DNA of 64,000 bases. Source: Malacoraja senta (lineage: Eukaryota). The notes beneath the pieces were generated by a model. That model was given only the letters and a program-made list of their open reading frames with translations, ran no database searches and had not been told where the DNA came from. Positions within the stretch are counted from its first letter, which is position 1. The number at the start of each line of letters is the position of its first letter. Position numbers and translations under genes: made by a program. The DNA lies in contig CM075989.1 of assembly GCA_038087875.1 (NCBI GenBank), positions 24,740,001 to 24,804,000 of the forward strand, read 5' to 3'. Positions 3,938 through 62,907 of this stretch are shown here, one piece after another.

Positions 3938-4035
3938 CAGTCGGAAGAAGGGTCTTGATCAGAAACATCACCCATTCCTTCTCTCCAGAGATGCTGCCTG
4001 TCCCGCTGAGTTACTCCAGCACTCTGTGTCTTTCT
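3938..4035 (+). mobile_element. Penelope pLTR-derived short repeat (degenerate hammerhead motif)
   Basis: GAAGAAGGGTCTTGATCAGAAACATCACCCATTCCTTCTCTCCAGAGATGCTGCCTGTCCCGCTGAGTTACTCCAGC. Confidence 0.75.
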
Positions 4036-4694
4036 AGTCTTTGATTTTTCCATGCTGTGAAAAAGGTTCTGACCACCTACCTTACCAATACCTGCCATAA
4101 TGTTATAAACTTCTATCACGTCTCCCCAATGAATTCAAATGTGCAGATGTTTCTGGTCTCCTTTGGTTGAATAATATTTGTATAGAAGAGTACTGAGGAA
4201 TTTCAGCAAGCACTTGCCTTATGTCAGGACCTCGTCCAGTGGGGATTTGAAGTGCTCTAGAGGCTTGCGTAAGGATAAGGAAACCTGCATCGCAGAGTCA
4301 ACAGAGAGAGAAAGGAGAGAACTGAACTGAGCAAAACCACAGTGATGAGAAAGCACTCAACAGACCTGGGTCTTTGGGGAAGATTCCACTGCAGGAATGC
4401 ACAGAGAGATTTACATAAAGGACAAGTGAAGCTTTGGCAGCAGTTCAAAGAAGATCATCAGGAATGGGAGACATTGTCAGATCCATGAAGAAAGGCAGGC
4501 TGTTGTCAACGAGAGACAATTGAGACAAGTTGTGGGCTGGAGAGGGGGTGGGGAGCTTCACAATGCAAGTGTTAAAACCACTGGTGGGCGGATTCCAGTC
4601 ATTTGACCTGAATACTATGAAGAGAATGATGGATTTTATTATCAAAACCTCTAAATAAATACAGCCTAAGGAGGTACTAGTTTCATATTTTACA

Positions 4695-4890
4695 CATTGG
4701 AGGCCAAGTCAGTGGATATTTTTAAGGTAGAGATAAATAGATTCTTGATTAGTACGGGTGTCAGAGTTATGAGGAGAAGGCAGCAGAATGGGGTTAGGAG
4801 GGAGAGATAGATCAGCCATGATTGAATGGTGGAGTAGACTTGATGGGCCGAATGGCCTAATTCTACTCCTATCACTTATGACCTTATGAC
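4695..4890 (+). mobile_element. CR1/HER1 3' end
   Basis: Near-identical to 40625-40812 and 54705-54890; (CTTATGAC)n tail. Confidence 0.8.
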
Positions 4891-4943
4891 CCTAAACTGC
4901 CATAAAGGCTACATCTCCCATTGACTTCAATTCCCACCCTTTG

Positions 4944-5160
4944 TAGGTAGACACAAAATGCTGGAGTAACTCAGCGGGACAGGCAGCATCCCTGGATAGA
5001 AGGAATGGGTGGCGTTTTGGGTCGAGTTCAGACTCTTTTAGTAAAGATGAGGAAGTGGGGACCTGGAAAACGGAAGGCAATGAAGAGACAAAGGTCATGT
5101 GAGGCTGAAGAGATGCTGCCTGACCCGCTGAGTTACTCCAGCTTTATGCGTCTATCTACT
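4944..5160. mobile_element. Inverted pair of Penelope pLTR-derived repeats
   Basis: Minus copy about 4944-5035, plus copy about 5108-5160. Confidence 0.7.
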
Positions 5161-6053
5161 GTGTAACATCTTCATAACCAGCTCAATCAATTAACCTGTT
5201 GACAGCCTCTCCATTTATTTGTGCTAAATTAATCTTCAGGACAATCTTTCAACTCAATCAAGCTAATCATTTATCTGCTGAACCAAATTTAAATAACATC
5301 CATATCTAATTTGCTGGTAGCAATATCTAGTAACTTTAGTGAGATTTGTGGATATGCTAGTTACCAAGATATGGTCTGAAGTTATAATTGCCTAAGCGTA
5401 AACTAACAGTGTGTAGGAAGGAACTGCAGATGCTGGTTTATACCAGACAGACACAAAATGCTGGAGTAACTCACTGGGTCAGGATGTGTAGAACTTTAGT
5501 TGGACCACGTCTTAGGATTCTGGTTACATGTTGCTCTCCAAAGCACACAGTAAAAGGTAAAAAAAATATATTTGTTAGAACCTTGTAGGAGCTGAAAGAC
5601 AGCGTTACCTGGGAAAGAACAAACAGTTTGAGAGTTCCTCTTTCAGAGTAGAGAAAGCAAGATGTGGAAATAGCTGCTGGACATCGGAAACATCGTGAAT
5701 GTGTTGGGCAAGATAGATGTGGGGAAGATGTTTCCACTTGTGGAGGTTCCAAAGCTGGGGGCAGAAATACAAGGCAGCCTCTAATAAATCCAGAGAAATA
5801 AAGAGAAATATCTTCATTGGAGCGGGGTTAGAATGTGAAACATGTTACCACAGGAAATGGTGGAGGAAAAATAGTTTAAATGCTTCCAAAAAGAGACTCG
5901 ACAACTACATCAGAGAAAAAGGAATATACTGTAAGGACATGTTTAAAAACTAAAATGTTGCAGATGTAATGAGAGGCTTGTGTTGTGTATAAACTCCAGT
6001 AAAGACTGTTTGGGCAACATGGAAGCCTTTATTTTTTATGTAAAGTGTGGCAT

Positions 6054-6250
6054 CTATGGAAAAAGAGGGGCTCTTTCTGCTTTGATATGACCGGTCCAGG
6101 AAAAATTGCTGGTGATATTTATTCCTGGGAATAAATGCCCAGGTTCCTTATTAAACCCAAATCTTTCAACCATCTCTACTTCAATGCCATCAATGTATAC
6201 TAGGGTATGTCTACCACTTTGCTTCCTGAAGTTGATCACTAGCTCCCTTA
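6054..6250 (-). mobile_element. Degraded Rex1-type RT fragment
   Basis: INFRKQSGRHTLVYIDGIEVEMVERF..GINITSNFSWT resembles VDFRKSRGGMHTPIHINGREVERV..GVNISDDLSWT in the 28503 ORF. Confidence 0.7.
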
Positions 6251-8546
6251 CCCTGTGTGAAATCTAGATGCTGCCTGACCTGCTGTGAACATTTCCAGCA
6301 TTTTCTGTTTTAAGCTGAATATAAAGTCTCATTCCATTTCAGCACAGGGTCACTTTGACCATGTGTATTCTGCTCAGCTGGTTTGCCTTTGGCCAATTGG
6401 ACTCAATGCTTCTGGAACTCGGTAAGGAAACAGGTCTTGAGTGAAGGAGGCACTGAAAGAAATGAACCATAGTCAATGAAAAAGTATTGGAGAAATGAAT
6501 GGAACAGTAACTGGCCCTGGAGTTGATGAGCTGCGTGCGAGGGTGTCCATACGTTCCTGTCATAGGAGCAGAATGAGGCCATTCGGCCCATCAATTCCAC
6601 TCCGCCATTCAATCATGACTGATCTATCTTTCTCTCTCAACCCCATCCTGCCTTCTCCCCGTAACCTTTGAAATGATGAGATGACTCCTGTTTCTGTTTG
6701 CTCTTAGTTTACCTGAATTAAAGTCAGATCTGTGTGCCGGTTCTCGTGTCAATGTATGAGCAGAGAGGCTCTCGTTCAACCTGCTTCTGATTTAGAGCCC
6801 CAGTCAAGAGTAGCAGCATTCACTCAGACAGACACAGTGATGTTCGCGACTACTGCTTTGTCCACATTGAACCAGAGGACTCCAGTGCTGAACTGGTTAA
6901 TGAAAATCAATTGATTAGTGGCTGGGGTGCTTGCCCGATGGATGGCATGTCAGTGGACAGTAAGGTCTCTCATCTCCTTCTGTGGCTCAGGGTTCAGGCC
7001 AGAAGGTTGCAGAGCAGTGAGAGCCTTGGTGCTTTGATGACCATTAATGAGTGGACAACCAGCCTTCTCACCACTGGCACTGTGGGAACCCTGCACAGGA
7101 GCCTTGCTGCATGGTGCCGAGTGCTCACCAGAGTTGCATCAATTAATGCATCACCTTTCTGATGACACCACTCCATACCGGTAACAACCCGATTCGGCTT
7201 CTGGCTGCTCATGGTCAACCTCATCCATTGTGAAATATCTCCTCAGCTTCCTTCCTTTAGAGTTGTAGAGACATAGAGGCAAACAGGCCCTTCAGCCCAA
7301 CTTGCCCTTGCCTACCAACATGCCCCCATCGACACTAGTCCCACCTGCCTGCGTTTGGACCACTTACGTGTACCCCTTTCCTATCCATGTACCTGTCTCA
7401 ATTACCTCCTCGGGCAGCAGGTTCCATATACTTACTACCCTTGATGTAGAGTTGTTTATTATTTTTAATATTAACCTATCTTGTCTAACTTTCTAAAGGT
7501 CCTTGCTGATGTCACCTCAGCCCACCCCAATGAAACGTTTTTACCCAACACAAGGAACGTCGAGCTACATTGGCCCAATCTCCCCTCCTTCAACCCACAT
7601 TCTTATCACTGTATTTCATTTCTATCCAGATGGTGTCTAAGGATTAATAAAAGATTCCAAAGTTTTATCCATAATGAAGATCAAACTCGCTGGTCTCCAT
7701 TTCCCTAGCTCACTTTCTCTACTATATAAAAAAAACAAGTTTAACATCTGCATTTGCCAGTCCCCAGCCTCCAGTGCTCACCCTCAGAGTTTTCTGGCAG
7801 ATTAATGCCCAGATTCCTGCAATTTCCACCCTTATTTCCTTACGGATCCTAAGATGCATCTTATCCGGCCCCTTTGATTTATTCACCTTAAGTTTGCACA
7901 GCTGTTTGGCACCACGCTGGTAGTAAAAAGAACTGTGTCACAATTTCCCCCTAAAACATTTTATAGTTCCCTTTCTCAATCAAATAAATGGAGCTGTTTC
8001 TTCTTTGGTTTAAAAAAACGAGGCCAAATGCTGGTTTAATTAAACTGGGCGTAAACGCTGGTTTGCACAGATGCCCAGATCACACTCGCAAAGGCCCACC
8101 AGCCACCTCATTATTATTTATCACTTACTATAACTCTTTGTCATTATCCTTCCCTTCTCTTGCACAAGTGTCGAGTGTGGCACGACGGTACAAGGTGAAC
8201 CAAAGAGAATGCTTTGTGTTTTTTCTGTGTTTTCTCAATCATCAGTAAACCCACTCGTGCTTTGCAGTGAGCTCGCCATAATAAAGCATCTTTATTGGCA
8301 AGTTAACATTCTTTGCTTTGGTCAATTTCCAACCAATTTAGAAAGACTCTGCTTGTCCGGTTAATGTCACGTTGGTCAACAAACGCAGTGAATTAAACCA
8401 ACCAAGGAACTTGATGTTCTGCAAAACTCTTCATGACCAGGGCTTCGCAACACCTAGAACTTATGCAGAACACTGGAAGAACTCAGTGGGACAAACAGTA
8501 CCTGGAGAGCCAAAAGGTATAGGTTATTGGGACTAGCTTAGAAGGG

Positions 8547-8818
8547 GTGTGTCGGAAGGAACTGCAGATGCTGGTTTAAACCGAAGATAGACGCAAAATG
8601 CTGGAGCAACTCAGCGAGACGGGCAGCATCTCAGGCAGACTGAATGAAGGTGTTCAGCGAAACGATCGCCCAGTCTACGTTTGGTCTCGCCGATGTATAT
8701 GAGTCCACATCTGGAACAATGGATACACTAGATGAGGTTGGTGGAGGTGCAAGTGAGCCTCTGCCTAACCTGAAAGGACTGTCGGGGTCCCTGGACAGAG
8801 TCGAGGGAGGAGGTAAAG
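8547..8818 (-). mobile_element. Penelope-like element fragment: GIY-YIG endonuclease pseudo-ORF (8633-8818) joined to the pLTR repeat (8547-8632)
   Basis: Manual translation of the minus strand: FTSSLDSVQGPRQSFQVRQRLTCTSTNLI*CIHCSRCGLIYIGETKRRLGDRFAEHLHSVCL, i.e. the PLE signature NLIYC..CxxC..YIGET.R...R..EH with one in-frame stop; this frame is absent from the ORF track. Confidence 0.9.
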
Positions 8819-9820: not shown

Positions 9821-11146
9821 ATTGTTGAGATCCAGTGTGGATTTTTTAAGCTTATTTCTCTCATGTCGAGTTGAATTTTTTGAATAGTAAATCCCTTAAG
9901 TTGCCTTTGGTTTTGTGGTTAACATCCCTTCAGCTATTCTTGGCATAATCCTTTTTATCAAATCCCTTTGCTCTTTCTACCTTCCAAGCTTTAATGCTAA
10001 CAAGACAAATTTCTCCAGTCTCGCTCCATGACTACATCCTCATCTCTGGAATTATTCCATTGAACCTTTTCTGTAATCTTGCCAAAGCCTTTACATCCTT
10101 TCTAAAATCAGTACACAGAGTCTGATCTGGTGCCAAACTAGTCCATCCCTCTATTTCGATTTAGCAACAAAAATATTACCTAGAACTCTATCAAAACCTT
10201 CTGAAAATCAATACATGCTACAAAATTCACATTTTATTTTTCCTCACAATGATTGTCCCTGGAGATGGGGGGGGGGGGGGGGTAGGTGGATGGGGATGGA
10301 AGGTGGGTTGCTAATGGTTTACTCCAGTCCACTGACCACTGGTCACTCTCCAGTGGTACAAGGTAGCCAGTCAGACTGAGCAACTCCACTGCTTGGACCT
10401 GTTCCTGCCTTGTCATCTATTTAACGTAAACAGAATATTCCTCATTCGTCGCAAGCACCACGACTCTTCAAGACGGCCGTTACCTAAAGACAGTGAGAGG
10501 TTCTCGTTAAAGGCTGATCCCGTGAATGTTCAGGTGGAGACTGACACTACACAAGCTGGGACGGGCTACATGCAGAATTGCCAATATCGATGGGATTAAA
10601 TAAAACGGTCGCTCCAATCATTCTCATCGTTTAGTGTTGTGCTGTACTTTGGAAACCATTCCACGTCATTGCAGGGGAGAGGCGATGAAGCTCCCCTCGG
10701 CTCCAGGTCTGGAATGGATCCTTGTTCAGCATGTCTAATTTTCTCACACTTGGTATCCCTGTTTCCAAGTTGCTGGAAATACTTGCTGCTGGCTCAGGGC
10801 CATTATGCAAGGGCGAGAACTGGTATCAAACAGTGACTGTTATTTAACAGAGGAAAACAGGAGTCGTTGCTGTTTGACTTTACTGGGGAACTATTCTGCA
10901 CACAATAATTAATACAGCCATATTGTAATGAGGCCAGAGGCAGTATTTTACAAACCTTTGAACGAGCCCTCTTCAACCACAGCTAGGATTGCTCTGGAGT
11001 TAACAATTAACTGGAGGAAATTCCAAGGAGAAGTTTCACCCTTTGTTTGACTTTTGATCATAATGATGACAGGCTAAAAGGAAAGGACAGAGTGCTGGAG
11101 TAACTCAGCGGGTCAGGCAGCATCTCTGGAGAACATGGATAGGTGA

Positions 11147-12290
11147 CATAGAAACATAGAAAATAGGTGCAGGAATAGGCCATTCGGCCCTTCGAGCCTG
11201 CACCGCCATTCAATATCATCATGGCTGATCATCCAACTCAGTATCCTGTACCTGCCTTATCTCCATACCCCCTGATACCTTTAGCCACAAGGGCCACATC
11301 TAACTCCCTCTTAAATATAGCCAATGAACTGGCCTCAACTACCTTCTGTGGCAGAGAATTCCAGAGATTCACCACTCTCTGTGTGAAAAATGTTTTTCTC
11401 ATCTCGGTCCTAAAAGATTTCCCCCTTATCCGTAAACTGTGACCCCTTGTTCTGGACTTCCCCAACATCGGGAACAATCTTCCTGCATCTAGCCTGTCCA
11501 ACTCCTTAAGAATTTTGTAAGTTTCTATAAGATCCCCCCTCAATCTTCTAAATTCTAGCGAGTACAAGCCAAGTCTATCCAGTCTTTCTTCATATGAAAG
11601 TCCTGACATCCCAGGAATCAGTCTGGTGAACCTTCTCTGTACTCCCTCTATGGCAAGAATGTCTTTCCTCAGATTAGGAGACCAAAACTGTACGCAATAC
11701 TCCAGGTGTGGTCTCACCAAGACCCTGTACAACTGCAGTAGAACCTCCCTGCTCCTATACTCAAATCCTTTTGCTATGAATGCTAACATACCATTCGCTT
11801 TCTTCACTGCCTGCTGCACCTGCATGCCTACTTTCAATGACTGGTGTACCATGACACCCAGGTCTCGTTGCATCTCCCCTTTTCCTAATTGGCCACCATT
11901 CAGATAATAGTCTACTTTCCTGTTTTTGCCACCAAAGTGGATAACCTCACATTTATCCACATTATACTGCATATGCCATGCATTTGCCCACTCACCCAGC
12001 CTATCCAAGTCACCTTGCAGCCTCCTAGCATCCTCCTCACAGCTAACACTACCCCCCAGCTTCGTGTCATCTGCAAACTTGGAGATGTTGCATTCAATTC
12101 CCTCGTCCAAATCATTAATATATATTGTAAATAGCTGGGGTCCCAGCACTGAGCCTTGCGGTACCCCACTAGTCACTGCCTGCCATTCTGAAAAGGACCC
12201 GTTTACTCCTACTCTTTGCTTCCTGTCTGCCAGCCAGTTCTCTATCCACATCAATACTGAACCCCCAATACCATGTGCTTTAAGTTTGTG
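11147..12290 (-). mobile_element. Young 5'-truncated CR1/HER1 LINE with an uninterrupted RT C-terminal ORF (about 350 codons, stop at 11238)
   Basis: GVPQGSVLGP, SKFADDTKL, LVRPHLEYCVQFW and FFTQRVVNLWNSLP with no stops; (TTTCTATG)n tail at 11147-11162. The N-terminus of the called ORF runs into the adjacent SINE and is not LINE. Confidence 0.95.
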
Positions 12291-12572: not shown

Positions 12573-12879
12573 GTTAACTCAACACACAGAGTTAGTAATG
12601 TTGCCACACGCACACAGACACACACACACACACACATGCACGCACACACACACACGCAGGAGACTCGACATCTACTCATTCCCCAGTGAGCAATGCCAAG
12701 CCACTGGCCATGACTTATTTATGGGATCTTGCACAAGGCCCCATATATCTTGTAGACGGAGCTTTGTAAACCTTTGTTTATGATTCATTGGCATAACGGG
12801 AATTAAACGCATTAAACCGGTCATTCCCTGAGATTTCTATCTGAACACTGAGGTCGGATTCTGAAAGAGTAACAGGAGA

Positions 12880-12976
12880 CTGAAGAAGGGTCTCGACCCA
12901 AAACGTCACCCATTCCCTCTCCCCATAGATGCTGCCTGTCCCACTGAGTTACTCCAGCATTTTGTGTCTGTCTTCA
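12880..12976 (+). mobile_element. Penelope pLTR-derived short repeat
   Basis: CTGAAGAAGGGTCTCGACCCAAAACGTCACCCATTCC.. Confidence 0.8.
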
Positions 12977-13009
12977 GTAGGATTCTTTCCTTTGGACGGG
13001 ATATACGGT

Positions 13010-13160: not shown

Positions 13161-13563
13161 ATCACAGTGGAACACCACTGGTCACGGACCTCCAGCCAGA
13201 ATAACACCCTTCCACCAGTATCCTCTCTTTGATATCTTGTCATGACTAACTAGGTAACTGTCTTGCATGCCTTCTTCACCACCGTGCCCACCATTGCTGC
13301 CACCTTCAGGATCTTTGGACTTTTACTCCCATCTACCTCTGCTCTTCAAATAAAAATATAGAAAAAACCTTTCCGGTGCTGTAAATCAGAAGTTTAAAAA
13401 ATCTTGGACTCACATCAACTAGGAATGGGAAATAGTCAAAGTTTCAGATCTGAGACCCTTTGTCAGAAAGAGGGAAAATGAAGAAACAGCAGAAAAAAAA
13501 GAACTGCACACACTGTTTTATACCAAAGATGGACAAAATGTTTTGGCCACCATGTTATAGGAA

Positions 13564-14339: not shown

Positions 14340-14434
14340 GAAAAATGTTGTCAAGTTTGATTGGATTCAGAGAAGATTTATCAGGATGTTGCCGACATTG
14401 AAACGGAGTTGGCCTTTTAAATTGAAGTAATTCA

Positions 14435-14580
14435 GCCGGTCAGGCAGCATCTCTGGAGAAAAAGGATGGGTGATGTTTCTGGTCGGGAGGAAAGGGTCCC
14501 ATCCTGAAACGTCACCCATCTATTTTCTGCAGAGATGCTGCCTGACCTGCTGATTTACTCCAGCACTCTGTGTCTATCTT
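14435..14580. mobile_element. Palindromic Penelope pLTR-derived element
   Basis: GTCAGGCAGCATCTCTGGAGAA..GATGGGTGA / TCACCCATC..CAGAGATGCTGCCTGAC. Confidence 0.75.
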
Positions 14581-15550
14581 TCTCATACAAGTTGTTGGTT
14601 TTGAGCACCTAGTATGGAAGAGTCTACAGGTCCTACACTGGTCTCTCCGGTCACCTCCAAACCCACTCAACTAGAGTAGAAACTCAAAATCAAACTAAAC
14701 TCAAACTCAAGTCATAGCCTGAGAAGAAAGTGATACCATTAGCCCTGAGGCTTGTAGACTATAAATCTCACATGTGGGAACATGTTGATTGTCCATCTGG
14801 ATCTGTTCAGAGTGTCAGTGAATTTCCACTTACACATGCACATGAAAAATATACACATTAATAGATTTGATTCGGAGCAGATGGATGTCCCATCAGGGTC
14901 TGAGCTCTCCACAATGAAACGCTACATGGTAAGAGATACTAAAAATAACCGCTGTGCCTACCACATGGAGAGGATTAGCAGCTATAGGATAGCCAAATAA
15001 GGCCCAAGGCCTACATGGTCTTCATTACTGTGGTGTAGCATGGATCACATACGCTTTGGCAGCGCACCAAATATGAGCAATAAGTGGCCCACTGGCCACT
15101 TACAGCAAAGAAGGCATTTCTGTGCCCAACATTTGAGATTGATATAGGATTTCACTCATAGTTCTGGCAAGATCTTCAACCACCTTCCCAACTATCACAA
15201 CTCCCCAGTTTAGTTTAGTTTAGAGATACAGCCCGGAAACGGGCCCTTCGGCCCACCGAGTCCGCACCTACCAGCGATCCCCGCACACTAACACTATCCT
15301 ACACACACTAGGGACAATTTTACAATTATACCAAGACAATTGACCTACTGAAAAGGAAATATGATTGAACAAAATTATTGGAGTTTTTTGAAGTTGTGTT
15401 TAGCAGAATAGATAAAAGTTGCCGTGGAGTATTTGGTCTTGTGAAGGCATTCAATTATGTTCCACACCGGAGTTTATGAAACAAAATTAGAATGCATATT
15501 GGCGGGAGTGTGGATTGAAGATAGATCAATGGACAAAAACAGAGTTTAGT

Positions 15551-15745: not shown

Positions 15746-17204
15746 TGTGCTGGTTTGTAGGTTAATTGGCCCTCTGTAATTCCCCCTAGTGTGCGGGGAG
15801 GGGATGAGACAGTGGGAGAACATAGAACTAGTGTGAACTAGTGATCGAAGGTCAACATGGACTCAGTGGGCCGAAGGGCCTGTTTCCGTGGTGTATCTCT
15901 AAACTAAAGTCTACACTTGTGACTGAGTGAGTGCAGTGAAGATTCACTGGAGTAATTCCTGAATGAGGTGCTGGTTGTGTGAGGATAGATTAATCAAACT
16001 GATCCAATTCTGTCTTGAGTTGAGATTAATGAGAGGTTATTCATTGAGATGAACATGGGGTTTACAGAGTGGATGGTGTGTTGATGTTTAGCCTGTCGGG
16101 TGTGTAGAATCACGGGTGAGAATCTCAAAATAAGTTGGCCATTTGGGACAGGGAGGAGGAACATTTCTTCTTTGGAATTGGCTACTCCATAGACTTGTAG
16201 AGTCTCCTTTGCTGAGAGTATTAAAGACAACATGTTAAATGTTTAGACATTATGGGAATGCAGTGACTGAGCTGATAAATAGGAGATAACTTTATACTCC
16301 AACGAGCAACAAGTGGGCAACATGATGTTGGAGCAACTTATCTTAACGAGATAAAGAGTTGGATGGAGGCTGTGGACAACGTTTGCAGCTCGAGCAACGT
16401 GATGAGCTTGGGGTAGACCGTGACCTTTTCTGACACCGTGGAGTCGTGTAGGAATGTGGTGGCTCTTCACATCCTCCCTGGCACAGCTTCTATTCCTGGC
16501 GCAGCCAATACTTACGGTTGAACACAGAATGCCAACCTAACTCAAGTGCAACAGTGAGGCTGCCTCTTTAAACTTGAGACACAGCGCGGACATGGTGGAC
16601 CGAAGGGCCTGTTTCCCAACTAATGATCACCCCGTACACCAGCACTGTCCTACACACTCGGGACAATGTATAATTCTGCCGATGCCAATTAACCTACAAA
16701 AAGCTGGAGTAACTGAGCGAAAATGGTGCTGTGAGGCAGCAACTTCACCGCTGCACCACCATACTGCACCAGCATTCACCTGCCAAGAGTTGCTGTGCTT
16801 TTAATGTCTCAGTGATCCTCAGAGCCGGTGCCAGCTTAAGATCCAGCCTTGTCTGGCGTCAGGAACACCAGATGATGGAGACACCTGCTTCCTCCTCCCC
16901 ACCACACCATTACATCCTCACCAGCTCCACCTAAAAGGCAATTGCAACCCATAATTACAGGCTTGCCACAGTGTAAATTAATCCTTGTTCCAGGCAGCAG
17001 GAAACTCATACCTAACTGCTGATTTAACTAATTTCCTCTCCTGGCCTGTGTTTACTTATTCAAAGTTACATTTGATATTGAAGGTAGACACAAAAAGCTG
17101 GAGTAACTCAGCGGGACAGGCAGCATCTCTGGAGAGAATGAATGGGTGACGTTTCGGGTCAAGACACTTCTTGATCACACAAATGATCAAGGATAAGGAC
17201 AAGG

Positions 17205-19345: not shown

Positions 19346-19417
19346 GCGGCTCTACCCACTGTGCAGTTCAAATCTTTTTTTTTAAAGTGTCATCTTGATC
19401 AAACATGAGAACAGCAG

Positions 19418-51080: not shown

Positions 51081-51605
51081 GGGTTTTATAAAGAACATTA
51101 TCTATCAAGTGAGTCAAGAGCGTTTTATTGTCATGTCACAAAATGGAACTATGAAACGTCTGATAGACACAAAATGCTGGAGTAACTCAGCGCAAACCTC
51201 TGTCTGATTACTCCATCATCTTGTCACCTCAACGGCGTGGTGTTCAAAATATAAAAGATAAATACTGGGCAGGTCAGGCAGGGTCTGTTGTGAGAGAAGC
51301 AGAGGCTGTTTCAGCTCACAGCATTCATCATATCCTGGTCCATTTACCATCCTGTCCCTCCACTTTTCTCTGTTAACTGCAGAGACAGGGAACTGCAGAT
51401 GCTGGCTAACAGAAAAGGACACAAAGTGCTAGAGTAACTCAGTGGGTCATGTATCGTGGTGTCAGATTTTGTCCACCAGTCACTGCCAGCTACCGGGAGC
51501 GTTCAAAGTGCCATGGGCATGTATGTTGTTACTGTTCCCAGCTGTTTCTCATCATTTAGCCATTGAGTCTGAATCACTGCCTGAAAGGAGCCTCACCAAA
51601 TGATT

Positions 51606-51830
51606 TGTGTAGGAAGGAACTGCAGATGCTGGTTTAAACCGAAGATAGACACAAAATGCTGAGTAACTCAGCGAGACAGGCAGCATCTCCGGGGAGATGG
51701 AATGGGTGAAGTTCTCTAGAGAGAAGGAATGGGTGATATCTGAAGAAGGGTCTCGACCCAAAACATCACCCATTCCTTCTTTCCAGAGATGCTGCCTGTC
51801 CGCTGAGTTACTCCAGCATTTTGTGTCTAT
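51606..51830. mobile_element. Palindromic Penelope pLTR element
   Basis: Inverted arms; degenerate flanking repeat CACCAAATGATTT / CACTAAATTATCT. Confidence 0.8.
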
Positions 51831-52948
51831 CCACTAAATTATCTGCTGTAGTCAGATACATAATGCATTTAATTAGGTCCGAGGTAACAGAAAAGTAATT
51901 GGAAGATAAAGCTATTCCTTTGTTGTTGCTAATATCCACTTTTCCAAGCAAACTTGGGTCAATTTGCATCCCACAATTGTCCTGTAACTTTACAGATCCA
52001 GTTAACATTTATTCACAAGGGCTATGTATATTTAAAACTGTAAAACCATAACTATGACCACAATGTAAGTTTAATTGCCAGATATAACGTAGATTGTATA
52101 AATTACAACTGTATACCAATGTTAGAACAAAATGGGAGACACCAGATCTTTCATTTAAATTCACATCCTTTGACATTTAAAATATAATTCTTGTTCTCAC
52201 TAGTAAGTTGGAGCATAAAACGTCAATATTTCACGGAGTATCCCATTACAGAGAGAGGCATTTCTAGCCTGCAGCCCACTGCAGATGGAGAACACTTTGC
52301 TCTTGGGTGTGACAGGCTGCAGACTGGGTAAGGCCCCTCTGTTTCTGACGGTTCCCCTGAAATGGATACGGGATTAAAAAGGTGTCAGGCTCACTGACAA
52401 ACATCTATTGCACCGACCCGATCCTGCCACGATAATTCAACAATAGTGAAAGAGAAAGGAGAGGAATTATTGAAACTCTGAAAAACAGTCACAGGCTTGT
52501 CCGATTCTGCTGGGAAGAGGAACAGCCCAGTGAATTCAGGAGACACACAGGGCTGAGGACTGAGATATTTACAGCAATCCCCACCGCCATTGTGCACGTT
52601 TATATGGTCCCAGCCCCAGACAAAGGTGGGAATAGAACCATGGTGGGGGCCTGGAACCTGCTGCCAGGGATGGTTTAGTTTAGTTGGTTTAGTTTGGAGG
52701 TACAGCGTGGAAACAGGCCCTTCGGCCCACCGAGTCCGTACCGACCAGCGATCCCCACACACCAACACTATCCTGCACACACTAGGACAATTTACACTTA
52801 TACCAAGCCAATTAAGCAGGCGGTGGAAGCAGATATGATAGTGGAGTTTAAGAGGATTTTAGATAGGCACATGGATATGCAATGGAGGCAGGATCATGGG
52901 CAGGCAGAGGAGATTGGTTTAACTTGGCACCGACATTAGAGAGAGTCA

Positions 52949-53225
52949 TGTATAGGAAAGAACTGCAGATGCTGGTTTACACTGAAGATAGACACAAAGT
53001 GTTAGAGTAACTCAGCGGGAAAGGCAGCATCTCTGGAGAGAAGGAATGGGTGGCATTTTGGGTCGAGACCCTTCTTCAGACTGAGTGTCGGGGAGAGGGA
53101 GACACAGAGATAAGGAAGTGTACGAGATCAAAAGAGATGCAGATCAAGGGAAATGTAGAATAGACAATTGTTAGCTCGGAGAAGGTGACTACAAAGCAAA
53201 CAGAGATACAATGTAATCAGTGGCA
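52949..53225 (-). mobile_element. Penelope 3' UTR plus pLTR
   Basis: Homologous to 32808-32990 and 41277-41635. Confidence 0.8.
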
Positions 53226-53392
53226 CAGGAGGACTTGTGGGTCAAGAGAGAATCAAGTGTATTGTCAGATGTCCCAGACAGAACAATGACACTATGGCCT
53301 GAAGGGCCTGTTCCTCTGCTGTTTTGTTCTATGTTCTATATTCTAGTATTTCTCATTGATCCCAGTCCTGTAGCTATTTAGTTGCATCACTC

Positions 53393-54890: not shown

Positions 54891-55819
54891 AATTCCAGTT
54901 GCTGGTTTACACCGAAGATAGACACAAAAAGCTGTAGTAGCTCAGCAGGACAGGCAGCATCTCTGGAGAGAAGGAATGGCTGACGTTTCGGGTCTGAAGA
55001 AGGGTCTCGACCCAAAACGTCAGCCATTCCTTCTCTTCACAGTTGATCTGATACTTGGTCTCAACTCCACGCACTGCATACTTTCCACATCAGATTCCTG
55101 CTGCTATTTTGTTACCAGTTCACTCAACCTATTCACATCACGTTGTGAACAGGGATTCTCCGGATCAACGGGAATATCGGTAGGTGGGGCCATTTGGTCG
55201 TTGTTGTTGGGTCTCACTCCCGCATCTCACAGGCTAATCGCACCGTGGGAGGAACCGTCGTGGGTCAAGGAGATGTCCCATCATCTTCTCAGGGAAAACT
55301 AGCCATGGACAATAAATCCCGAGCTGCACTATTGCCCACGTTCCATAATTGACATAACATCAAATATTATAAGTGAGATTGCAGATACTGAGTTTGCAAT
55401 CCTTGGAAGTTCGAATGTTAAACAGTGTTTGATGTTGCTTAAGATATTAAGTGAGGTTGATAGAATAATAGAGAGAAACTATTTCTTGCTGGTTGTGTAA
55501 TCTAGAGCAGATGGCATTGTTAAATACTTGGAGCTGGTGCAGTAGTGAAGTTGGGAAGCCCATGCACATGGAGGGCAGATGATATTTCATACTCTCTTCA
55601 TTAAATAATAATTAATGATGGAAATAGATTTGAGCTTGGTAGGGTTTTGGTGATCAGCAGTAATAAGAATTGTGAGAATAATGTGGGTAAATAGACAGTT
55701 CCTAGTTCTCAGACCAGTCTGACTGTCCTCCTGATGACATGTTAACTGTACTCGCTGTCCTTGCAGATGTTTATCATTCACGGTGCCCATTCTACTGGAG
55801 GCAACTCCTGCTGAAGATT

Positions 55820-56006
55820 TTAAGAAGGAACTGCAGATGCTGTAAAATCGAAGGTAGACAAAAAATGCTGGAGAAACTCAGCGGGTGCAGCAGCATCTAT
55901 GGAGCGAGGGAAATAGGCAACGTTTTGGGCCGAAACCCTTCTTCAGACTTGCCCAAACGTTGCCTATTTCCCTCGCTCCATAGAGGCTGCTGCACCCGCT
56001 GAGTTT
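55820..56006. mobile_element. Palindromic Penelope pLTR element with a perfect 15-bp flanking direct repeat
   Basis: CTCCTGCTGAAGATT at 55805-55819 and 56007-56021. Confidence 0.88.
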
Positions 56007-56099
56007 CTCCTGCTGAAGATTAATAAGAATATAGTCCATGTGCTGAATTAAAGTGAACTATCCTCTCTCTGACTATTTTGGAGCATGGTGAATAATATT

Positions 56100-56472
56100 A
56101 CATAGAAACATAGAAAATATGTGCAAGAGTAGGCCATTCGGCCTTTCGATCATCCAAAATCAGTGCCATGTTCCTGCTTTTCCCCCCATATCCTTGATCT
56201 CCAGAGATGCTGTCTGTCCCGCTGAGTTACTCCAGCATTTGGTGTCTCCCTTGATTCCTTTAGCCCTAAGAGCTATATCTAACTCTCTCTTGAAAACATC
56301 CGGTGAATTGGCCTCCACTGCCTTCTGTGGCAGAGAATTCCACAGATTCACAACTCTCTGGGTGGAAAGTGTATTTCCTCATCTCAGTCCTAAATGGCTG
56401 ACCCCTTATTCTTAAACTGTGACCCTGGTTCTGAACTCCCCCAACATCGGGAACATTTTTCCTGCATCTAGC
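56100..56472 (-). mobile_element. CR1 3' end carrying a 50-bp pLTR insert (56199-56248)
   Basis: Matches 11147-11495; the insert is flanked by CCTTGAT (56192-56198 and 56249-56255). Confidence 0.85.
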
Positions 56473-59400
56473 TTGAGACTGAGCTCCTGATCACAGCCTT
56501 GTTCTCCAGGATTGCAGATCAGAAAGTCCTGCACTTGATTATCCAGGCCATTAAAATTAAGTGGAGCATTTCCAACATGTGTCCCTTGAGTCTGAGGCAG
56601 ACAATTCCCAAATAGCCTCTCGTATCACAGACGGGTAGTAATCCATTGGCTCAACCTAGCTAAACAACTTCTCAAAGTGCATGAGAAATAAAAGACTTGG
56701 CCTCACAAACCCTCTGCAGCCAGAAGAAATGAAGCCTTTTACTGTCGTAGTAAATAAAGAATACCTGCAGACGCTGGCAATCTGAAATCAAACTGAAAAT
56801 GCTGGAAAATCTCAGCAAGTCCAGAAACAACAGAAAATGTTTCAGGGACAGGACCCTTCATTAGAACTGGCCAACTATCACAGATGGATTTCATGGTTTA
56901 GAGTTCTAACCTATTCCTTATATCATGGCCTATAAATCTCCAGGAACATTGGTACTCAGACCAAGTGGAGACCATTTGGCCCCTTGATCCTGTTCTGCTT
57001 TGGGCTGGATGCACCTTCCGTACCAAGTTCGTTTCTCTAAGCATTAGTACCATCACCTACAAAGGAATTCAAACAATAGAGTCTTGATTTTTTTTTGTGT
57101 TAAATTTCGTCCCAGGATTCTTCCCAGGAGCTGAGGGTCCAAAGCTCTTTCTCTGAAACCTCCCTGGTTACCAGCACATACATAAATCATTCTTTCTGAC
57201 CTTCCAACTTCTGTGCTGGGCTCATCAGTCTCAATGTACTGTTGTACTTGGTGCGATGAGGTAATGGTCTGGCACGCCACCGTGTTACTGTGGTAACTAC
57301 AGCTGGAGACAGTGACACTCATGGTTACAGTAGATCCCTCATCGACCCATAGAGGGATGGGTGATCCCATAGCTGTTGGCGAGGCTGATATCTGGGCATG
57401 GGGAAGGTGCCGTGATGCTCCCTCTGTTTGGGGAAGGGCAGACCCATTGACTGGAGCTCACCGCTCAATCAGAGACTCCACTCATGACGACTGAAGGTTC
57501 GGGATTGCGTTACACAATTGCGTTAGTTGTAGACTTAGTTTTTAGTTATACAACATGGAAACAGCAGCCAGGAGATGCACAGCTAAATATCGGTTGGTCC
57601 TGACACATTGAAGAGCTTCCCACTGGCTGTAACCTCTACAGAGAGAAGGTAATTGATCACGATCCTGGAAGCATTGGCAGCATTGAGGGAAGTGTGGAAT
57701 CTGTCATAAATACAGGTTCATATGTTATAGGAGCAAATTAGGCCATTCGGCCCATCAAGTCTACTCTGCTATTCAATCATGGATAATCTATATTTCCCTT
57801 TCAACGCCATTCTCCTGCCTTCTACCCATATCCCTTGATATCTGCCTCTTCACACCTTCCACTCCCATCCATCACGTATAAACCCAAAATACTTGGTAAA
57901 ATGGCATTGAAGACTTTTAAGAAACATTTAGACAGGTACATCGATAGGACAGGTTTGGAGAGATATGGGCCAAACACGGGCTGTGGGACTAGTGTAGCTG
58001 GGACATGTTGGCCGGTGTGGGCAGCTTTCCACACTGTATCGCTCTATGACTCTATGGAGCAGTAGCTACTCCATATCAAGTGTCATGTTGTGGATGGACC
58101 TACTATTGCATCCTACAAACGGGCAATTTGCAAACGCCAATTAACCTACTAGAAGAGTGGTGTTTTCCTGCTGCTTTGGACAGTAATTATCTCATCTCTG
58201 CCCCAATGTTGGACGTGGGATCTTGCCAAGTATAAATCCTGACATTACAACAGTGATTGCAATTCTCTGTGACTAAATGGCAATGAGGTTGTTTGGGATA
58301 TCTTAAACTCACCTGAAATAAATAGAAAAATTTGTTTATTAATCTTTCCAATTCAGGAAGGCAGATTGAGCGCAAAATTGAAATTCCGTTTTTCTCAATA
58401 CAAGTGTTTTCCCGACGTGTTTATGAATTTCTAAACCTTGCGACAAGCTCAGTACTTCAAAACTCACAGTTGACCCCAAGGTGGTGAAAGTGAATCCCTT
58501 CTGAGATGAAGGATTTGGAAAGACATGCAGGTGTCTTCTCCAGATTCAGGTCTGCTACTGGTTCAGTGTGTGACGTTAATGAAACAATTGGTTGTCCATT
58601 ATAAACCCCAAGCTGCGTTGGAATCGTTAAGCTGCGGATTCTCCACTTCAGTGACTGCCTTCAGACACAATACACCACCCTCACATCAGAGAAAAGGCGA
58701 AGGCTTACAATTACTGCAGGAGATGCGTGTCATTCCTCATTCTCTGCCGGCAATGAAGCGAGCCGTGCGCAGTTGGCAATGAGCTGTATGTGGCCACAAG
58801 GTTGGCTTAAGCTGGTGGACGTTTTGTTGCAGAGTTAGGAGTTGTCCAAAAACTCTGTGTGCTTGCTTTAGGTAACACTGTTGGGACCGAACGAACGACT
58901 AAACAAGGACGCAACACTGATTCGAGGAGAGAGGGAAATTATTGATGTTTGTGCCTGGACTGTGAAAGATACAGAGCAGAAACAGGCAACGTAGCAAAAG
59001 CCTGAGGCCTTCTTGATTCCAATCAAAGTAGTGGGTGAGTTGACTTTATGGTATTCATGGCCTGTGGTTGTTGGCATTTGTGTTAAGGATGTCAAAGAAG
59101 CAACACTATTAACATCTTGTGCAGTTGTTGCATTTGTAGTGAGGTGAAGTGATTGTGATCATAGACATCTTCTCATCTTTACTCGACATTGTCCTTCAAA
59201 GATAAACTAGGCCATGGCTTCATTAGTCACACGAGGGGAACTGTTCAAAAATGCTAACACCATTTTAAGAATCAAAAGCTTAAAGTCATGGCCGCACACA
59301 TTTCCCTCACCTATTTCTCATTAAACTTTCTGAGTAGATTTCAGGCTCCACAGACCAGGCCTGGCTGGTAATCTGATACACACTTACGATCACAGCATTT

Positions 59401-60120
59401 CTTGTGTATTTCGCATTAAGTTAATCAAGAAGCTTACTGACGGAGGAGATTTAACAAAGCTTTGCCATTTTCCAATCCTTATATTGCAGGTCAAAGGCAC
59501 GGTGACCTTGTGGCCTTGCCTTGCCTCCGTGGAGCTCCCATTGAATGGCTGCATTGTCAACCTGGCATTGCAGAATGAAAGTGCTTCTCCAGGCTGTGAG
59601 AGCTTGCATTGAGGAGGGGGGGCTGCAAGGGGGGCTGCAAGGTGACACAAAGCATTTGTCTTTTTGGCCAAACATTCTCACCTCTGGATCTATACGCTGC
59701 GGCCTCTACAGCAACAATGGGGCTTTCGTTATCATTGTACGGCCGTCATTGATCAACACCAAGCTAATTAAACGGCTCACAGGACCACATTAGTGAGCCA
59801 ATGGAAGGCGGTCATGTGGTCCGTGTGGTCAGCCACGTATGAACAAGACGCCATTGTCCCTGACCATGGACCAGTGGATGGGGATAAAGAGATAGCCAGA
59901 CTCTACACTGACCAATAGCTGGTTACATTCTGGGTTTGGTTAGGATTCGGAACCGGCTGTAAACCTGATCTTTTTAGGAGCAATGTCCTTTCCTCGAGAC
60001 AGCCCTTTAGCTAAATAGACGGTGAGATGTTTCTGATATTGTGACCTCCCTCAGGTGTCAGCTCCGACCACGACCTGTGCTTTTTTACTCTCCTGTGTCC
60101 AGCTGATCTATATTCCTAAT

Positions 60121-60280
60121 GTAGACACAAAATGCTGGAGTAACTCAGCGGGGAAGGCAGCATCTCTGGAGAGAAGGAATGGGTGACGTTTTGGGTCGAG
60201 ACCCTTCTTCAGTCTGAAGTTGAGTTACTCCAGCATTTGTCTATCTTCGGTTTAAACCAGCATCTGCAGTTCCTTCCTAC
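60121..60280. mobile_element. Palindromic Penelope pLTR element
   Basis: Arms meet at CTTCAGTCTGAAG. Confidence 0.8.
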
Positions 60281-60658: not shown

Positions 60659-60696
60659 TAACCTTTTCACTTCTCTTTCACATGCATTTGTATTGG

Positions 60697-61081
60697 GTGA
60701 CACGGTGGCACAGCGGTAGAGTTGCTGCCTCACAGCACCACAGACCCAGGTTCCATCCTCAACAGAGGATGCTTCTCTGTACGGCTTGGAAACAGGCCCT
60801 TCGGCCCACCGAGTCCACACTGACCATCGCTCACCTGTTCACCCTAGTTCTATGATATCCCACTTTTGTGTCTACTCCTTACACACTAGGGGCAATTTAC
60901 AGAGGGCCAATTAACCTACAAACCCGCATGTCTTTGGGATGTGGGAGGAGACCAGAGAACCCATATGGTCACAAGGAGAACATGCAAACTCCACACAGAG
61001 AGCACCTGCGGTCAGGATCGAACGAACCTGTGTCCTTGGTGCTGAGGCAGCAGCTCTACCAGTTGTGTCACCGTGCTGCCC
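60697..61081. mobile_element. HE1 SINE head (+) fused to a near-complete HE1 SINE (-)
   Basis: tRNA-like heads at both outer ends. Confidence 0.78.
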
Positions 61082-61898
61082 AATCATTATTGGTGTCCTA
61101 TCACAGGGTCCTCACCGACACACACCCATGCAGCAACATAAAGAAGGCAATGTCTAAATTATACCAAAGATAGACCCTCTCTCACTGCTCCCCCTCAGTG
61201 ATTCCTACATTTCTCTCCCACTCAGCCACTGTTTAAATGTATCCAGCTCTTCATCACCCACTCCCCCCCACACCCTCACCCCCCCAACCCTCCCACCCCC
61301 CTCCACCCCCTTAATTTCAGTCTGAAGGGTCCCGACCAGAAACGTCACCTATCCATGTTCTCCAGAGTTGCTGCATATCTGACCCGCTGCGTTACTCCAG
61401 CACTCGATGTTTATCTTTGGCATAAACCAGTGTCTGCAGTTCTTGGTTTTGAAGTAATGGCGAGTGGGATGCAGAGGCCCCGGCTATTTGTATTTGCCGA
61501 GTGTGACTGTGGTGCCTCGGGGCCACTGACTGATACTCGTGTGTAGATATTGTGTGGGACTAGGGAGGAAGCAGCTGCTCACCGCTGGCTGCAGTGGGCA
61601 GGCTCTTCCTGCTGGGTCTTGGCAGCTCACAGTACAGGTTCCAGTCTATAAACAGGCAAGATGCTGACAGGACTAATTCCCTGTGTTTTCCTCGCCAAGC
61701 CTCTGCATGCCAAGTGTCCGTGGTTCCATACACACTGTGCTTTGCCGAGGAAATACCTCAGTGCAATCCAATCTTTTAATTACACGTTTCGCTTTTGAAA
61801 TGGGCTGGATCTCTCAGAGACTCTGGAGAACGCAAGTGGGAAGGGCCAGAGGAGGTTATTCAGCCCCTTGAGCCTGCTCCGTAGTCGAAGAAGATCAC

Positions 61899-62089
61899 GT
61901 GTAGGAAGGAACTGCAGGTGCTGGTTTACACCGAAGATAGACACAAAATGCTGGAGTAACTCAGCAAGACAGGCAGCATCTCTAGAAAGAATTCCGTTTA
62001 TCCAGAGATGCTGCCTGTCCCGCTGAGTTACTCCAGCATTTAGTGTCTATCTTCGGTGTAAACCAGCATCTGTAGTTCCTTCCTACACA
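61899..62089. mobile_element. Near-perfect fold-back Penelope pLTR element (arms about 87 bp)
   Basis: GTGTAGGAAGGAACTGCAG..CAGCATCTCT / AGAGATGCTG..TTCCTTCCTACAC. Confidence 0.88.
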
Positions 62090-62181
62090 CTACCGGAGAT
62101 CCAGGAGGAAAGGTAAATGTGTGTGACTTTCTGTGTGAATATCCTGTATGCCTTGTATGTGACTGATAGGAGTTGCTCTCA

Positions 62182-62287
62182 AACGTTGCCTATTTCCTTC
62201 GCTCCATAGATGCTGCTGCACCTGCTGAGTTTCTCCAGCAATTTTGTCTACCTTCGATTTTCCAGCATCTGCAGTTCCTTCTTGAAC
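62182..62287 (+). mobile_element. Solo pLTR insert with 10-bp target-site duplication
   Basis: GTTGCTCTCA (62172-62181) and GTTACTCTCA (62288-62297). Confidence 0.75.
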
Positions 62288-62907
62288 GTTACTCTCATGA
62301 TGTTGTGGACATGCATTCCAACATCTTGCAGTAGCTTCACATTACTCTAAATTCCCTTATTGCTTTTCCCCAAATGCATTCACTCACACGTTTCTGGATT
62401 AAATCCCATTGACTACTTTCTGCCCAAATAGCCAGACTATTTATAACTTCTTGTAGCCTGAAGCTTTCCTACTCATTGTCAAACAATGCTGCCATGTTCT
62501 GCTGATTTCTTTATCGTCGTTCTCATCTTTAGATCCAAATCATTCATACATAGTTCTCAAAATGTAAGTGAGTGAGTACTAGTCTCTGTGGAATCCCGTT
62601 GGTAAACACCTGCTGTTACTAAAACTCCACCTTCAAACCTTTGTCTCCTGTCTCTGAGCCCGTTTTGGTTCTGTATTGCTACTGTGATTTGGATCTCATG
62701 GCCTTTTACCTTCAGGCTTCCGAAAACCCACAGAAACCGCTTCAAACAAAGAGTATTCATTAACCTCCTTACACCTCCACAATGAACACAGTGCTGGAGT
62801 AACTCAGTGGGTCAGACAGCATCTCTGGAGAACATGGATAGGTGACGTCTCGGGTCAGGACCCTTCTTCAGTTTTGTTGCCCCTTGGCCACTCTGACTAC
62901 ATCAGAG

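What the first reader, a model, noticed from the sequence alone, without database searches (positions are those of the whole stretch)
3938..62871. The most abundant short repeat is a hammerhead-ribozyme-bearing Penelope pLTR that inserts as SINE-sized units
Seen: about 40 loci (eye count) share a 100-130 bp sequence whose 5' consensus is CAGT-CTGAAGA-A-GGGT[CTCG]ACCC-GAAA-CG-TC-ACC. Established: this matches the minimal type I hammerhead described in Penelope-like elements (CUGANGA core, short helix II, GAAA, palindromic helix III thought to need dimerisation, NUH site). Helix II loops vary between copies (CTCG, TTCG, CCTG, CCCG) while the GGG/CCC stem is mostly kept. The commonest defects are CCCG to CCCA or CCTG, consistent with CpG decay after insertion. 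Helix I is only 2-3 bp. Inference: a retrozyme-like non-autonomous family occupying several percent of this DNA.
Basis: partly seen in the sequence, partly recalled or inferred. Interest (0 to 1): 0.8.

Follow-up and report, generated by a model that had tools for sequence, protein, structure and literature searches.

The report
Penelope retroelement's hammerhead-bearing start-end copies
This very abundant 100-135 base repeat is the terminal repeat of an intact Penelope-like jumping gene and carries that gene's small hammerhead-ribozyme motif; the short copies are likely made when copying starts near the front of the gene's RNA and runs off its capped start, rather than being a separate ribozyme-cut mobile family.

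Summary
In detail: 68 unit matches at 42-43 loci cover 8.9% of the window (0 in controls) and about 4% of a 600-kb genome sample. The unit is the pLTR of autonomous Penelope-like elements (RT plus C-terminal GIY-YIG, Neptune-type linker). Intact copies carry it on both sides of an open 1,212-1,290 aa ORF. Its first 32 bases fit the minimal type I hammerhead published for such elements; cleavage is untested and most copies are decayed. The retrozyme reading is not supported. Short copies do not begin at the ribozyme cut (position 33). They begin at positions 2-3 inside a TCAGT initiator-like motif, very often behind an untemplated G, and end at two 3' sites (97-100 and 128-136). Of 74 young copies, 55 start within the unit, 18 start 132 or more bases upstream, and none start between -12 and -131. 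Best model: internally primed reverse transcription in the 5' pLTR runs off a capped RNA end and that short cDNA integrates. Known kind of element; I did not find this run-off origin in my limited literature searches.

The parts
3938..4046 (+). solo unit, positions 1-104
4944..5033 (-). solo unit, 3-99, helix II partly deleted
5105..5168 (+). unit fragment 46-114
5413..5483 (-). unit fragment 60-132
6266..6310 (+). diverged unit fragment 52-94
8465..8635 (-). two unit fragments (31-90, 48-129)
8638..8817 (-). fragment of the element's ORF just before and into the GIY-YIG domain (aa 1115-1174 of L116, 80% identical), abutting a unit fragment
   Evidence: tblastn
11081..11148 (-). unit fragment 29-96
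12877..12979 (+). solo unit 2-104; a G stands before position 2
13498..13545 (-). weak unit fragment 80-127 (second model only)
14421..14581 (.). head-to-head inverted pair
17075..17172 (-). solo unit 8-105
18793..18920 (-). solo unit 4-131 with tail; 11-bp candidate TSD (1 mismatch)
19410..19512 (-). solo unit 2-104; 14-bp candidate TSD (1 mismatch)
22453..22621 (.). inverted pair, main unit on minus with strict hammerhead core; 16-bp candidate TSD (1 mismatch)
27219..27318 (+). solo unit 2-101; 13-bp candidate TSD (1 mismatch)
29857..29902 (-). diverged fragment 42-89
31030..31107 (-). fragment 26-103
32910..33152 (+). unit plus two 66-bp repeats (positions 25-90), with about 100 bp of element 3' UTR upstream
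35207..35574 (.). fold-back pair joined through short pieces of 3' UTR
38629..38756 (+). unit 2-130 with short 3' UTR piece upstream
39192..39525 (+). unit plus four 66-bp repeats; 11-bp candidate TSD (1 mismatch)
39958..40090 (.). inverted pair
41266..41573 (-). unit plus three 66-bp repeats, short 3' UTR piece upstream
43003..43117 (+). unit 2-132 with internal deletion of the core, short 3' UTR piece upstream
45001..45325 (.). unit with strict core plus two 66-bp repeats on minus, inverted partner on plus
46557..46768 (.). inverted pair overlapping at the unit start
46970..47015 (-). fragment 45-94
49727..49834 (+). solo unit 7-115
50751..51082 (.). three 66-bp repeats on minus plus inverted unit
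51161..51192 (-). fragment 67-98
51386..51453 (-). fragment 58-128
51609..51831 (.). inverted pair with partial duplication
52953..53228 (-). unit 1-131 (52953-53083) with about 145 bp of pyrimidine-rich element 3' UTR upstream
54891..55045 (.). inverted pair
55820..56013 (.). inverted pair of the TTCG-loop subfamily; exact 15-bp TSD
56189..56253 (+). fragment 36-100
56763..56864 (-). diverged unit (second model only)
60109..60280 (.). inverted pair, main unit on minus
61319..61447 (+). solo unit 2-129 with small deletion in the core
61901..62086 (.). inverted pair of 3' halves, both with tail
62174..62285 (+). unit 19-132
62785..62872 (-). solo unit 4-93

Best explanation
The repeat is the pLTR of autonomous, Neptune-type Penelope-like retroelements of this genome, and the 100-135 bp copies are likely run-off cDNAs made from the capped 5' end of the element's own RNA. 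Shown: the unit flanks intact RT/GIY-YIG ORFs; short copies end at two 3' sites, start at positions 2-3 inside TCAGT, often behind an untemplated G, and carry target-site duplications. Inferred: RNA polymerase II starts at the TCAGT initiator-like motif, so the hammerhead is the first structure of the RNA and helix I has only 2 bp; the endonuclease nicks the target and RT primes internally at about +98 or +133, as shown in vitro for an anole Poseidon element; priming in the 5' pLTR reaches the RNA end after 97-133 nt, copies the cap as C, and then joins the target, folds back (inverted pairs) or jumps to another template site (partial duplications). Long copies come from priming in the 3' pLTR or from a jump into it. 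After insertion the copies decay neutrally. The hammerhead is kept by selection in master elements but is uncut on the templates of these copies.
For: Unit lies 76-280 bp behind the ORF end in 18 of 18 GIY-YIG loci of this protein family (17, L045) and not next to the ORF in any of 16 loci of a second family. In 13 of 13 long-ORF loci it starts 116 bp behind the stop, and in 4 it also lies whole in front of the ORF. 74 young copies picked by an internal 49-mer: 3' ends 97-100 in 50, 128-136 in 20; 5' ends 55 at -1 or later (24 at 0 to +4), 1 at -11, none from -12 to -131, 18 at -132 or further. Genome-wide exact counts of apparent 5' ends: position 2, 2,028; position 3, 3,128; position 7, 698; cut site 33/34, 269 under a stricter filter. 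At unit-to-unit junctions starting at position 2 the preceding non-C letter is G in 23 of 25 (young), 16 of 20 and 23 of 36 (older subfamily; these two lists overlap) distinct junctions against about 30% expected (listings counted by eye; P). 2 of 19 inspected ORF-start loci (L294, L302) have an ORF-containing segment that begins at position 0/1 and is joined to a short unit. Flanking direct repeats of 9 bp or more in 19 of 67 solo copies against 2 of 67 mismatched controls. Core positions vary in 0 of 11 columns between 4 subfamily consensuses against 29 of 85 others (P=0.015).
Against: No RNA evidence: the start site and cap are read from DNA junctions only. Against host flanks the G excess is weaker: 38 of 100 (position 2) and 47 of 100 (position 3) against 28 of 100 at position 7, and part of it comes from jumps onto the GGG of helix II. 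An RT could add C at any abrupt template end, capped or not. 30 of the 55 short young copies start at +6 to +48, so ordinary junction loss or fold-back also contributes. Solo copies carry the start motif and might be transcribed themselves. Most end-mapping is on the young subfamily, while most window copies belong to older ones. In the anole work cleavage needed the protein and was not needed for insertion in vitro, so the ribozyme's role stays open.
Confidence: 0.7

Rival explanations
1. Solo units are SINE-like masters: they keep an internal promoter, are transcribed from TCAGT and are mobilised in trans by the Penelope protein. Same chemistry as the best model, different template.
For: Short copies far outnumber ORF-start copies (18,950 exact matches of a unit 49-mer against 335 of an ORF-start 33-mer). 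D. virilis Penelope has an internal TATA-less promoter (passages). Identical 66-bp array junctions recur at 5 window loci, which points to a master with that structure.
Against: The three largest subfamilies are each found on ORF-bearing copies; two of the arrays carry element 3' UTR upstream; 50 of 74 young copies stop at 97-100 and lack the sequence up to +133 that the second priming site needs.
Confidence: 0.15
2. The units are extreme 5' truncations of ordinary 3'-primed insertions, with a stall or microhomology hot spot at the hammerhead's 5' edge.
For: Strong 5' truncation, tails and inverted partners are standard for these elements (passages); many short copies start at +6 to +48.
Against: No ends in the 120 bases from -12 to -131; untemplated G at positions 2, 3 and -1; ORF-containing segments that begin at the same place.
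Confidence: 0.08
3. Retrozyme model: hammerhead-cut, possibly circular monomers of a non-autonomous family are reverse-transcribed and inserted.
For: The motif fits the minimal hammerhead and is conserved between subfamilies; hammerhead-bearing tandem arrays exist elsewhere in the genome (13 x 384 bp), which fits the retrozyme definition of Li et al. 2026.
Against: 0 of 74 young copies start at position 33; at most about 740 scaled ends there against about 4,300 at position 3; junctions into the unit start leave the upstream unit over a spread of positions 24-36, not at the cut alone; the window's 66-bp units lack half of the ribozyme.
Confidence: 0.04
4. The pyrimidine tract plus CAG upstream of the core is a splice acceptor, and the sharp 5' edge is an exon boundary, as for the D. 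virilis intron that ends at helix I.
For: All subfamilies have a pyrimidine-rich 3' UTR ending in CAG; precedent.
Against: No shared upstream exon: in many copies the TSD abuts the unit and filler letters differ between copies; ends at -1 and +2 keep part of the supposed intron.
Confidence: 0.03

Closest known systems
Minimal type I hammerheads in pLTRs of metazoan Penelope-like elements (Cervera and De la Pena 2014, PMC4209133; read parts 1-2 of 4, two supplement files searched)
   Same: CUGANGA and GAAA cores, one extra base before G10.1, G10.1-C11.1 pair, palindromic zero-loop helix III, location in both pLTRs, mostly single dispersed copies.
   Different: Helix II is 4 bp and helix I 2 bp here (7-8 and 4-5 bp in their Schistosoma consensus; 2 bp in D. 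virilis). Copy number here is far higher than the 4,000-9,000 they give for coelacanth and Xenopus. Activity untested.
Neptune/Nematis-type EN+ Penelope-like elements (Craig et al. 2021, PMC8557442; passages)
   Same: One ORF with RT and C-terminal GIY-YIG, CX2-5CxxC linker, partial tandems, inverted 5' copies, optional 30-40 bp tail.
   Different: ORF of 1,212-1,290 aa with a long Pro/Ser/Thr-rich variable region; a discrete unit-length class dominates. No tree was built, so Neptune against Nematis is not resolved.
Poseidon of Anolis carolinensis, PAc (Frangieh et al. 2024, PMC11167929; read parts 1-2 of 4)
   Same: Two adjacent internal RT start sites that give the tail; hammerhead not needed for insertion in vitro; truncating the RNA 5' end shortens the product.
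   Different: In PAc the ORF starts inside the hammerhead and priming is 111-118 nt into the ORF; here both 3' ends lie in the 5' UTR, about 35 and 70 nt before the first ATG. They did not report genomic copies ending at the RNA start in the parts I read.
Non-LTR retrozymes (Li, Clavereau, Pollet 2026, bioRxiv 10.64898/2026.07.22.740005; read parts 1-3 of 5, supplements closed)
   Same: pLTR-derived, type I hammerhead, monomers dispersed; they include one chondrichthyan genome.
   Different: Defined as tandems with a complete hammerhead in at least two consecutive units; the window's units are solo, inverted or in arrays lacking the core.
Retroviral minus-strand strong-stop DNA (recalled, no call)
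   Same: Priming near the RNA 5' end gives a short cDNA that runs off the cap and can transfer to a repeat at the 3' end.
   Different: Priming here is inferred to be from nicked target DNA, not tRNA, so the short product integrates directly.

Membership tests
EN+ Penelope-like element | Single ORF with RT and C-terminal GIY-YIG endonuclease | tested here: met
   L116 ORF 1,238 aa: RVT_1 E=6.6e-6, GIY-YIG E=0.0015, both just under Pfam cut-offs; open frames
EN+ Penelope-like element | pLTRs on both sides of the ORF from partial tandems; inverted 5' copies | tested here: met
   Whole unit on both sides in L113, L115, L116, L117; 51 of 190 core-bearing hits have a head-to-head partner
EN+ Penelope-like element | Optional 30-40 bp 3' tail | tested here: met
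   3' ends 97-100 in 50 and 128-136 in 20 of 74
Neptune clade | CX2-5CxxC linker before the endonuclease | tested here: met
   C-x4-C-x2-C in the ORF; feature, shared with Nematis
Neptune clade | Placement in the RT phylogeny | not tested
   No reference PLE proteins were fetched
Minimal type I hammerhead (min-HHR) | Core C3-A9 and G12-A15.1, U16.1, H17, extra base before G10.1, G10.1-C11.1, palindromic 15.2-16.2 | tested here: met
   All 4 subfamily consensuses and intact elements; strict core in 2 of 25 window and 43 of 147 sample hits
Minimal type I hammerhead (min-HHR) | Covariation of helices I and II | tested here: inconclusive
   Only one-sided U-A to U.G changes at 16:21 and 4:33; no two-sided change; MFE folds favour other pairings
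Minimal type I hammerhead (min-HHR) | Self-cleavage as dimer or with protein | not testable with these tools
   Needs in vitro assay
Non-LTR retrozyme | Tandem units each with a complete hammerhead | tested here: not met
   Window arrays repeat positions 25-90 only; such tandems do exist elsewhere in the genome
Non-LTR retrozyme | Unit ends defined by the ribozyme cut | tested here: not met
   0 of 74 start at 33
Non-LTR retrozyme | Circular RNA | not testable with these tools
   No raw RNA reads offered
SINE in the strict sense | Head derived from tRNA, 7SL or 5S RNA with Pol III promoter | tested here: inconclusive
   No Rfam match to such RNAs over the unit; no dedicated tRNA scan was run; the whole unit is element pLTR

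The most novel reading that the evidence does not exclude
These units are integrated strong-stop products of a Penelope-like element. Priming in the 5' pLTR, run-off at the cap and transfer of the cDNA end to the identical sequence in the 3' pLTR would be the normal replication route. That would explain how pLTR tandems are regenerated, and the hundreds of thousands of short copies would be failed transfers. The hammerhead region would be the shared terminal repeat used for the transfer.
Probability: 0.3. Interest if true: 0.75.

Novelty: new member of a known kind. Interest (0 to 1): 0.5.

Why it matters
The element class and its hammerhead are known. The useful part is that this genome holds thousands of very young insertions whose ends record the RNA start and the two priming sites to the base. 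This gives in vivo support for internal priming, which was shown only in vitro, and it argues that ribozyme cleavage does not define the templates of these copies. It also makes an open question testable: Schostak et al. 2008 (PMC2377424, passages) state that no mechanism for pseudo-LTR regeneration is known. About 4% of the sampled DNA should be annotated as Penelope pLTR rather than as a SINE.

Tried and rejected
Rfam: no hammerhead family matches; the miRNA hits are inverted pairs. Covariation scan: the top-scoring column pairs reuse the same columns (45, 51, 62, 63, 76, 96) and reflect subfamily linkage, not structure; the consensus fold of 56 copies gave no structure. MFE folds of two natural copies, monomer and dimer, do not give the hammerhead fold. 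RNA: no RNA holder listed and no raw reads; contigs of four runs from other organisms, RNA by guess only, cover the unit but cannot show starts, ends or strand. Idea that the ribozyme cut forms the RNA 3' end used for template jumps: older-subfamily junctions seemed to cluster at 32-33, but with a shorter anchor they spread over 24-36, none sits at the cut in the young subfamily's first 100, and a 3-base microhomology explains part; not supported. Strand-transfer test by shared rare variants at both ends: none in the two direct tandems tested (L113, L115), so inconclusive. Host-exon splicing onto the CAG: rejected. Literature: searches for strong-stop/template jump/cap and for non-templated G with Penelope gave 0 papers, as did initiator plus pLTR; the library lacks most subscription papers, and Lunse et al. 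2017 on PLE hammerhead dimers was not held (recalled and seen only as a citation). Dfam and Repbase could not be searched, so the family may already be named. One supplement file of Cervera 2014 and all supplements of Li 2026 were not visible and may list this family.
Full report
Observation. An HMM from seven window copies finds 68 unit matches (5,723 bp, 8.9% of the window) and none in a reversed and two shuffled windows. They form 42 loci, 43 with a second model: solo units, head-to-head pairs and five arrays of a 66-bp sub-unit. No other repeat in the window overlaps more than 19 others. In 60 evenly spaced 10-kb stretches of the 1.94-Gb genome there are 261 matches covering 4.2%, with 0 in the reversed control. 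Scaled up this is roughly 0.8-0.9 million matches (a rough figure from large contigs only). Positions below count from the C of CAGT as 1.

The motif. Positions 5-32 read CUGAAGA, one extra A, a 4-bp helix II with a tetraloop, GAAA, and the palindrome ACGU followed by C or U. This is the minimal type I hammerhead that Cervera and De la Pena described for metazoan Penelope-like elements, including the extra base before G10.1 and the palindromic 15.2-16.2 pair. Helix I has two pairs, 4:33 and 3:34. Rfam hammerhead models do not hit it. Between four subfamily consensuses 0 of 11 core columns vary against 29 of 85 others (P=0.015). Single copies differ from their consensus at 5.4% of non-CpG core sites, 7.5% of other non-CpG sites and 21% of CpG sites. 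G12 sits in a CpG, so only 2 of 25 window hits and 43 of 147 sample hits that cover the core keep it strictly. There is no two-sided covariation, only U-A to U.G changes at 16:21 and 4:33. The hammerhead is therefore supported by anatomy, context and conservation among masters, not by covariation, and cleavage is untested.

The parent. A GIY-YIG search of the genome gave two families. In 18 of 18 fetched loci of one family the unit lies 76-280 bp behind the ORF end on the same strand; it is not next to the ORF in any of 16 loci of the other. Thirteen long-ORF loci all carry it 116 bp behind the stop, and four carry a whole copy directly before an open ORF of 1,212-1,290 aa from the first Met. 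The protein has RT and C-terminal GIY-YIG matches just under Pfam's cut-offs and a C-x4-C-x2-C linker, the Neptune/Nematis mark. The window's main older subfamily and the one that forms 66-bp arrays are also found behind endonuclease remnants. Their 3' UTRs differ widely in length and sequence, and similarity begins at TCAGT.

The ends. A 49-mer from the middle of the young subfamily has 18,950 exact matches. I analysed 74 distinct copies from the first 70 fetched loci, all from the first 8.3 Mb of contig 1. Their 3' ends fall at 97-100 (50) and 128-136 (20), with 4 elsewhere. This is the two-site tail that Frangieh et al. traced to two internal RT starts. The 5' ends form two classes: 55 at -1 or later (24 at 0 to +4), one at -11, none from -12 to -131, and 18 at -132 or further. 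None starts at the predicted cut, position 33. Genome-wide exact counts of apparent starts are 2,028 at position 2, 3,128 at 3, 698 at 7 and 269 at 33/34 under a stricter filter; scaled by hand for the letters allowed these are about 2,600, 4,300, 960 and at most 740. Solo copies have flanking direct repeats of 9 bp or more in 19 of 67 cases against 2 of 67 controls.

The extra G. Against host flanks, the letter before the start is G in 38 of 100 (position 2, 29.5% expected), 47 of 100 (position 3, 31%) and 28 of 100 (position 7, 31%) listed matches. Where one unit is joined to the start of another the upstream sequence is known and G-poor, so the test is cleaner. Among junctions starting at position 2 with a non-C letter before it, that letter is G in 23 of 25 distinct junctions of the young subfamily (29 of 31 rows before near-duplicates were merged). 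In the older subfamily it is G in 16 of 20 (19 of 23 rows) and 23 of 36 (26 of 40 rows; overlapping list). I counted these by eye from the first 100 rows of each listing; rows starting at other positions were left out of these counts; P is 1e-10, 6e-6 and 3e-5. G also precedes starts at -1 and +3. An untemplated G at the 5' junction as the mark of a copied cap, and TCAGT as an initiator consensus, are recalled knowledge; an initiator-like TCACT in a rotifer pLTR is noted in PMC3846280 (passages). Two of 19 inspected ORF-start loci have an ORF-containing segment that begins at position 0/1 and is joined to a short unit (L294, L302), which ties this start to the autonomous RNA. Short duplications of positions 6-14 in front of the start occur in 5 of 30 position-3 loci, as expected if RT reaches a template end and jumps.

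Mechanism. Shown: pLTR identity, two 3' ends, a sharp 5' limit, extra G, TSDs. Inferred: capped RNA starts at about +2/+3; target-primed RT starts at about +98 or +133; priming in the 5' pLTR runs off the cap and the short cDNA is joined to the target, folded back or extended after a jump. I put this at 0.7. Rivals are solo SINE-like masters using the same chemistry (0.15), a truncation hot spot (0.08), ribozyme-cut retrozymes (0.04) and a splice boundary (0.03). The bolder reading, that transfer of the run-off cDNA to the 3' pLTR regenerates the tandem, fits the seamless upstream 3' UTR in most ORF-start loci, but my shared-variant test was inconclusive, and junctions do not single out the ribozyme cut.

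Limits. There is no RNA evidence either way. End mapping rests mostly on the young subfamily. No RT tree was built and Dfam/Repbase were not available. Three literature searches for this run-off origin found nothing in a library that lacks most subscription papers. Two earlier AI notes on other genomes also call such repeats known-type Penelope pLTR hammerheads; they are leads, not support, and the second reads the copies as truncated tails, which the end data here argue against.

Verdict. Real feature, correctly recognised as a Penelope pLTR hammerhead, wrongly filed as a retrozyme-like family. New member of a known kind, with a testable mechanism for the short copies. Interest 0.5.

Noticed in passing
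L026 (G000:C5550:20000-29999); also L011-L025, L031: A second, very young Penelope-like family: 758-aa RT/GIY-YIG ORF preceded by a 597-aa ORF with a weak GDSL/SGNH hydrolase match (E=0.004). Near-identical copies sit in tandem arrays, often about 7.5 kb apart, near the ends of C14 and C17 and on small contigs. It lacks this repeat, and a simple hammerhead pattern found nothing in L026.
   Followed up: partly
L279-L291 (G000:C1:28.90 Mb); listing at C1:256.83 Mb: Tandem arrays of 13 x 384 bp and 10 x 275 bp. The 384-bp unit holds the 3' UTR, the whole hammerhead and the ORF start, which fits the published retrozyme definition; the 275-bp array was not fetched.
   Followed up: partly
G000 C2:192.7-195.4 Mb, C4:84.9-85.7 Mb, C6:30.2-31.9 Mb, C15:8.0-9.9 Mb: Local clusters of one and the same unit-to-unit junction, some as 43-46 bp tandem repeats holding only the hammerhead, which suggests local or satellite-like amplification.
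   Followed up: no
window:32910-33152, 39192-39525, 41266-41573, 45001-45248, 50751-50983: Five arrays share the same 66-bp sub-unit and junction (position 90 to 25), so the duplication was probably present in a master element.
   Followed up: partly
unit positions 52-59 with 110-117, and 68-83: A conserved 8-bp stem and a hairpin can form downstream of the hammerhead, near the two 3' ends; 83-97% of copies keep each pair but there is no clear two-sided change. Candidate protein-binding structure.
   Followed up: partly
window:9058-9364, 33733-34027, 43359-43821, 60692-61084 and others: A second abundant short repeat (up to about 20 copies) that looks like a tRNA-headed SINE of cartilaginous fishes (recalled, not tested), and several LINE RT fragments such as 11238-12416.
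   Followed up: no
L116:1363-1400: In the young subfamily the TTCG loop variant makes a 7-bp alternative hairpin that would tie up the GAAA core in the predicted fold.
   Followed up: no
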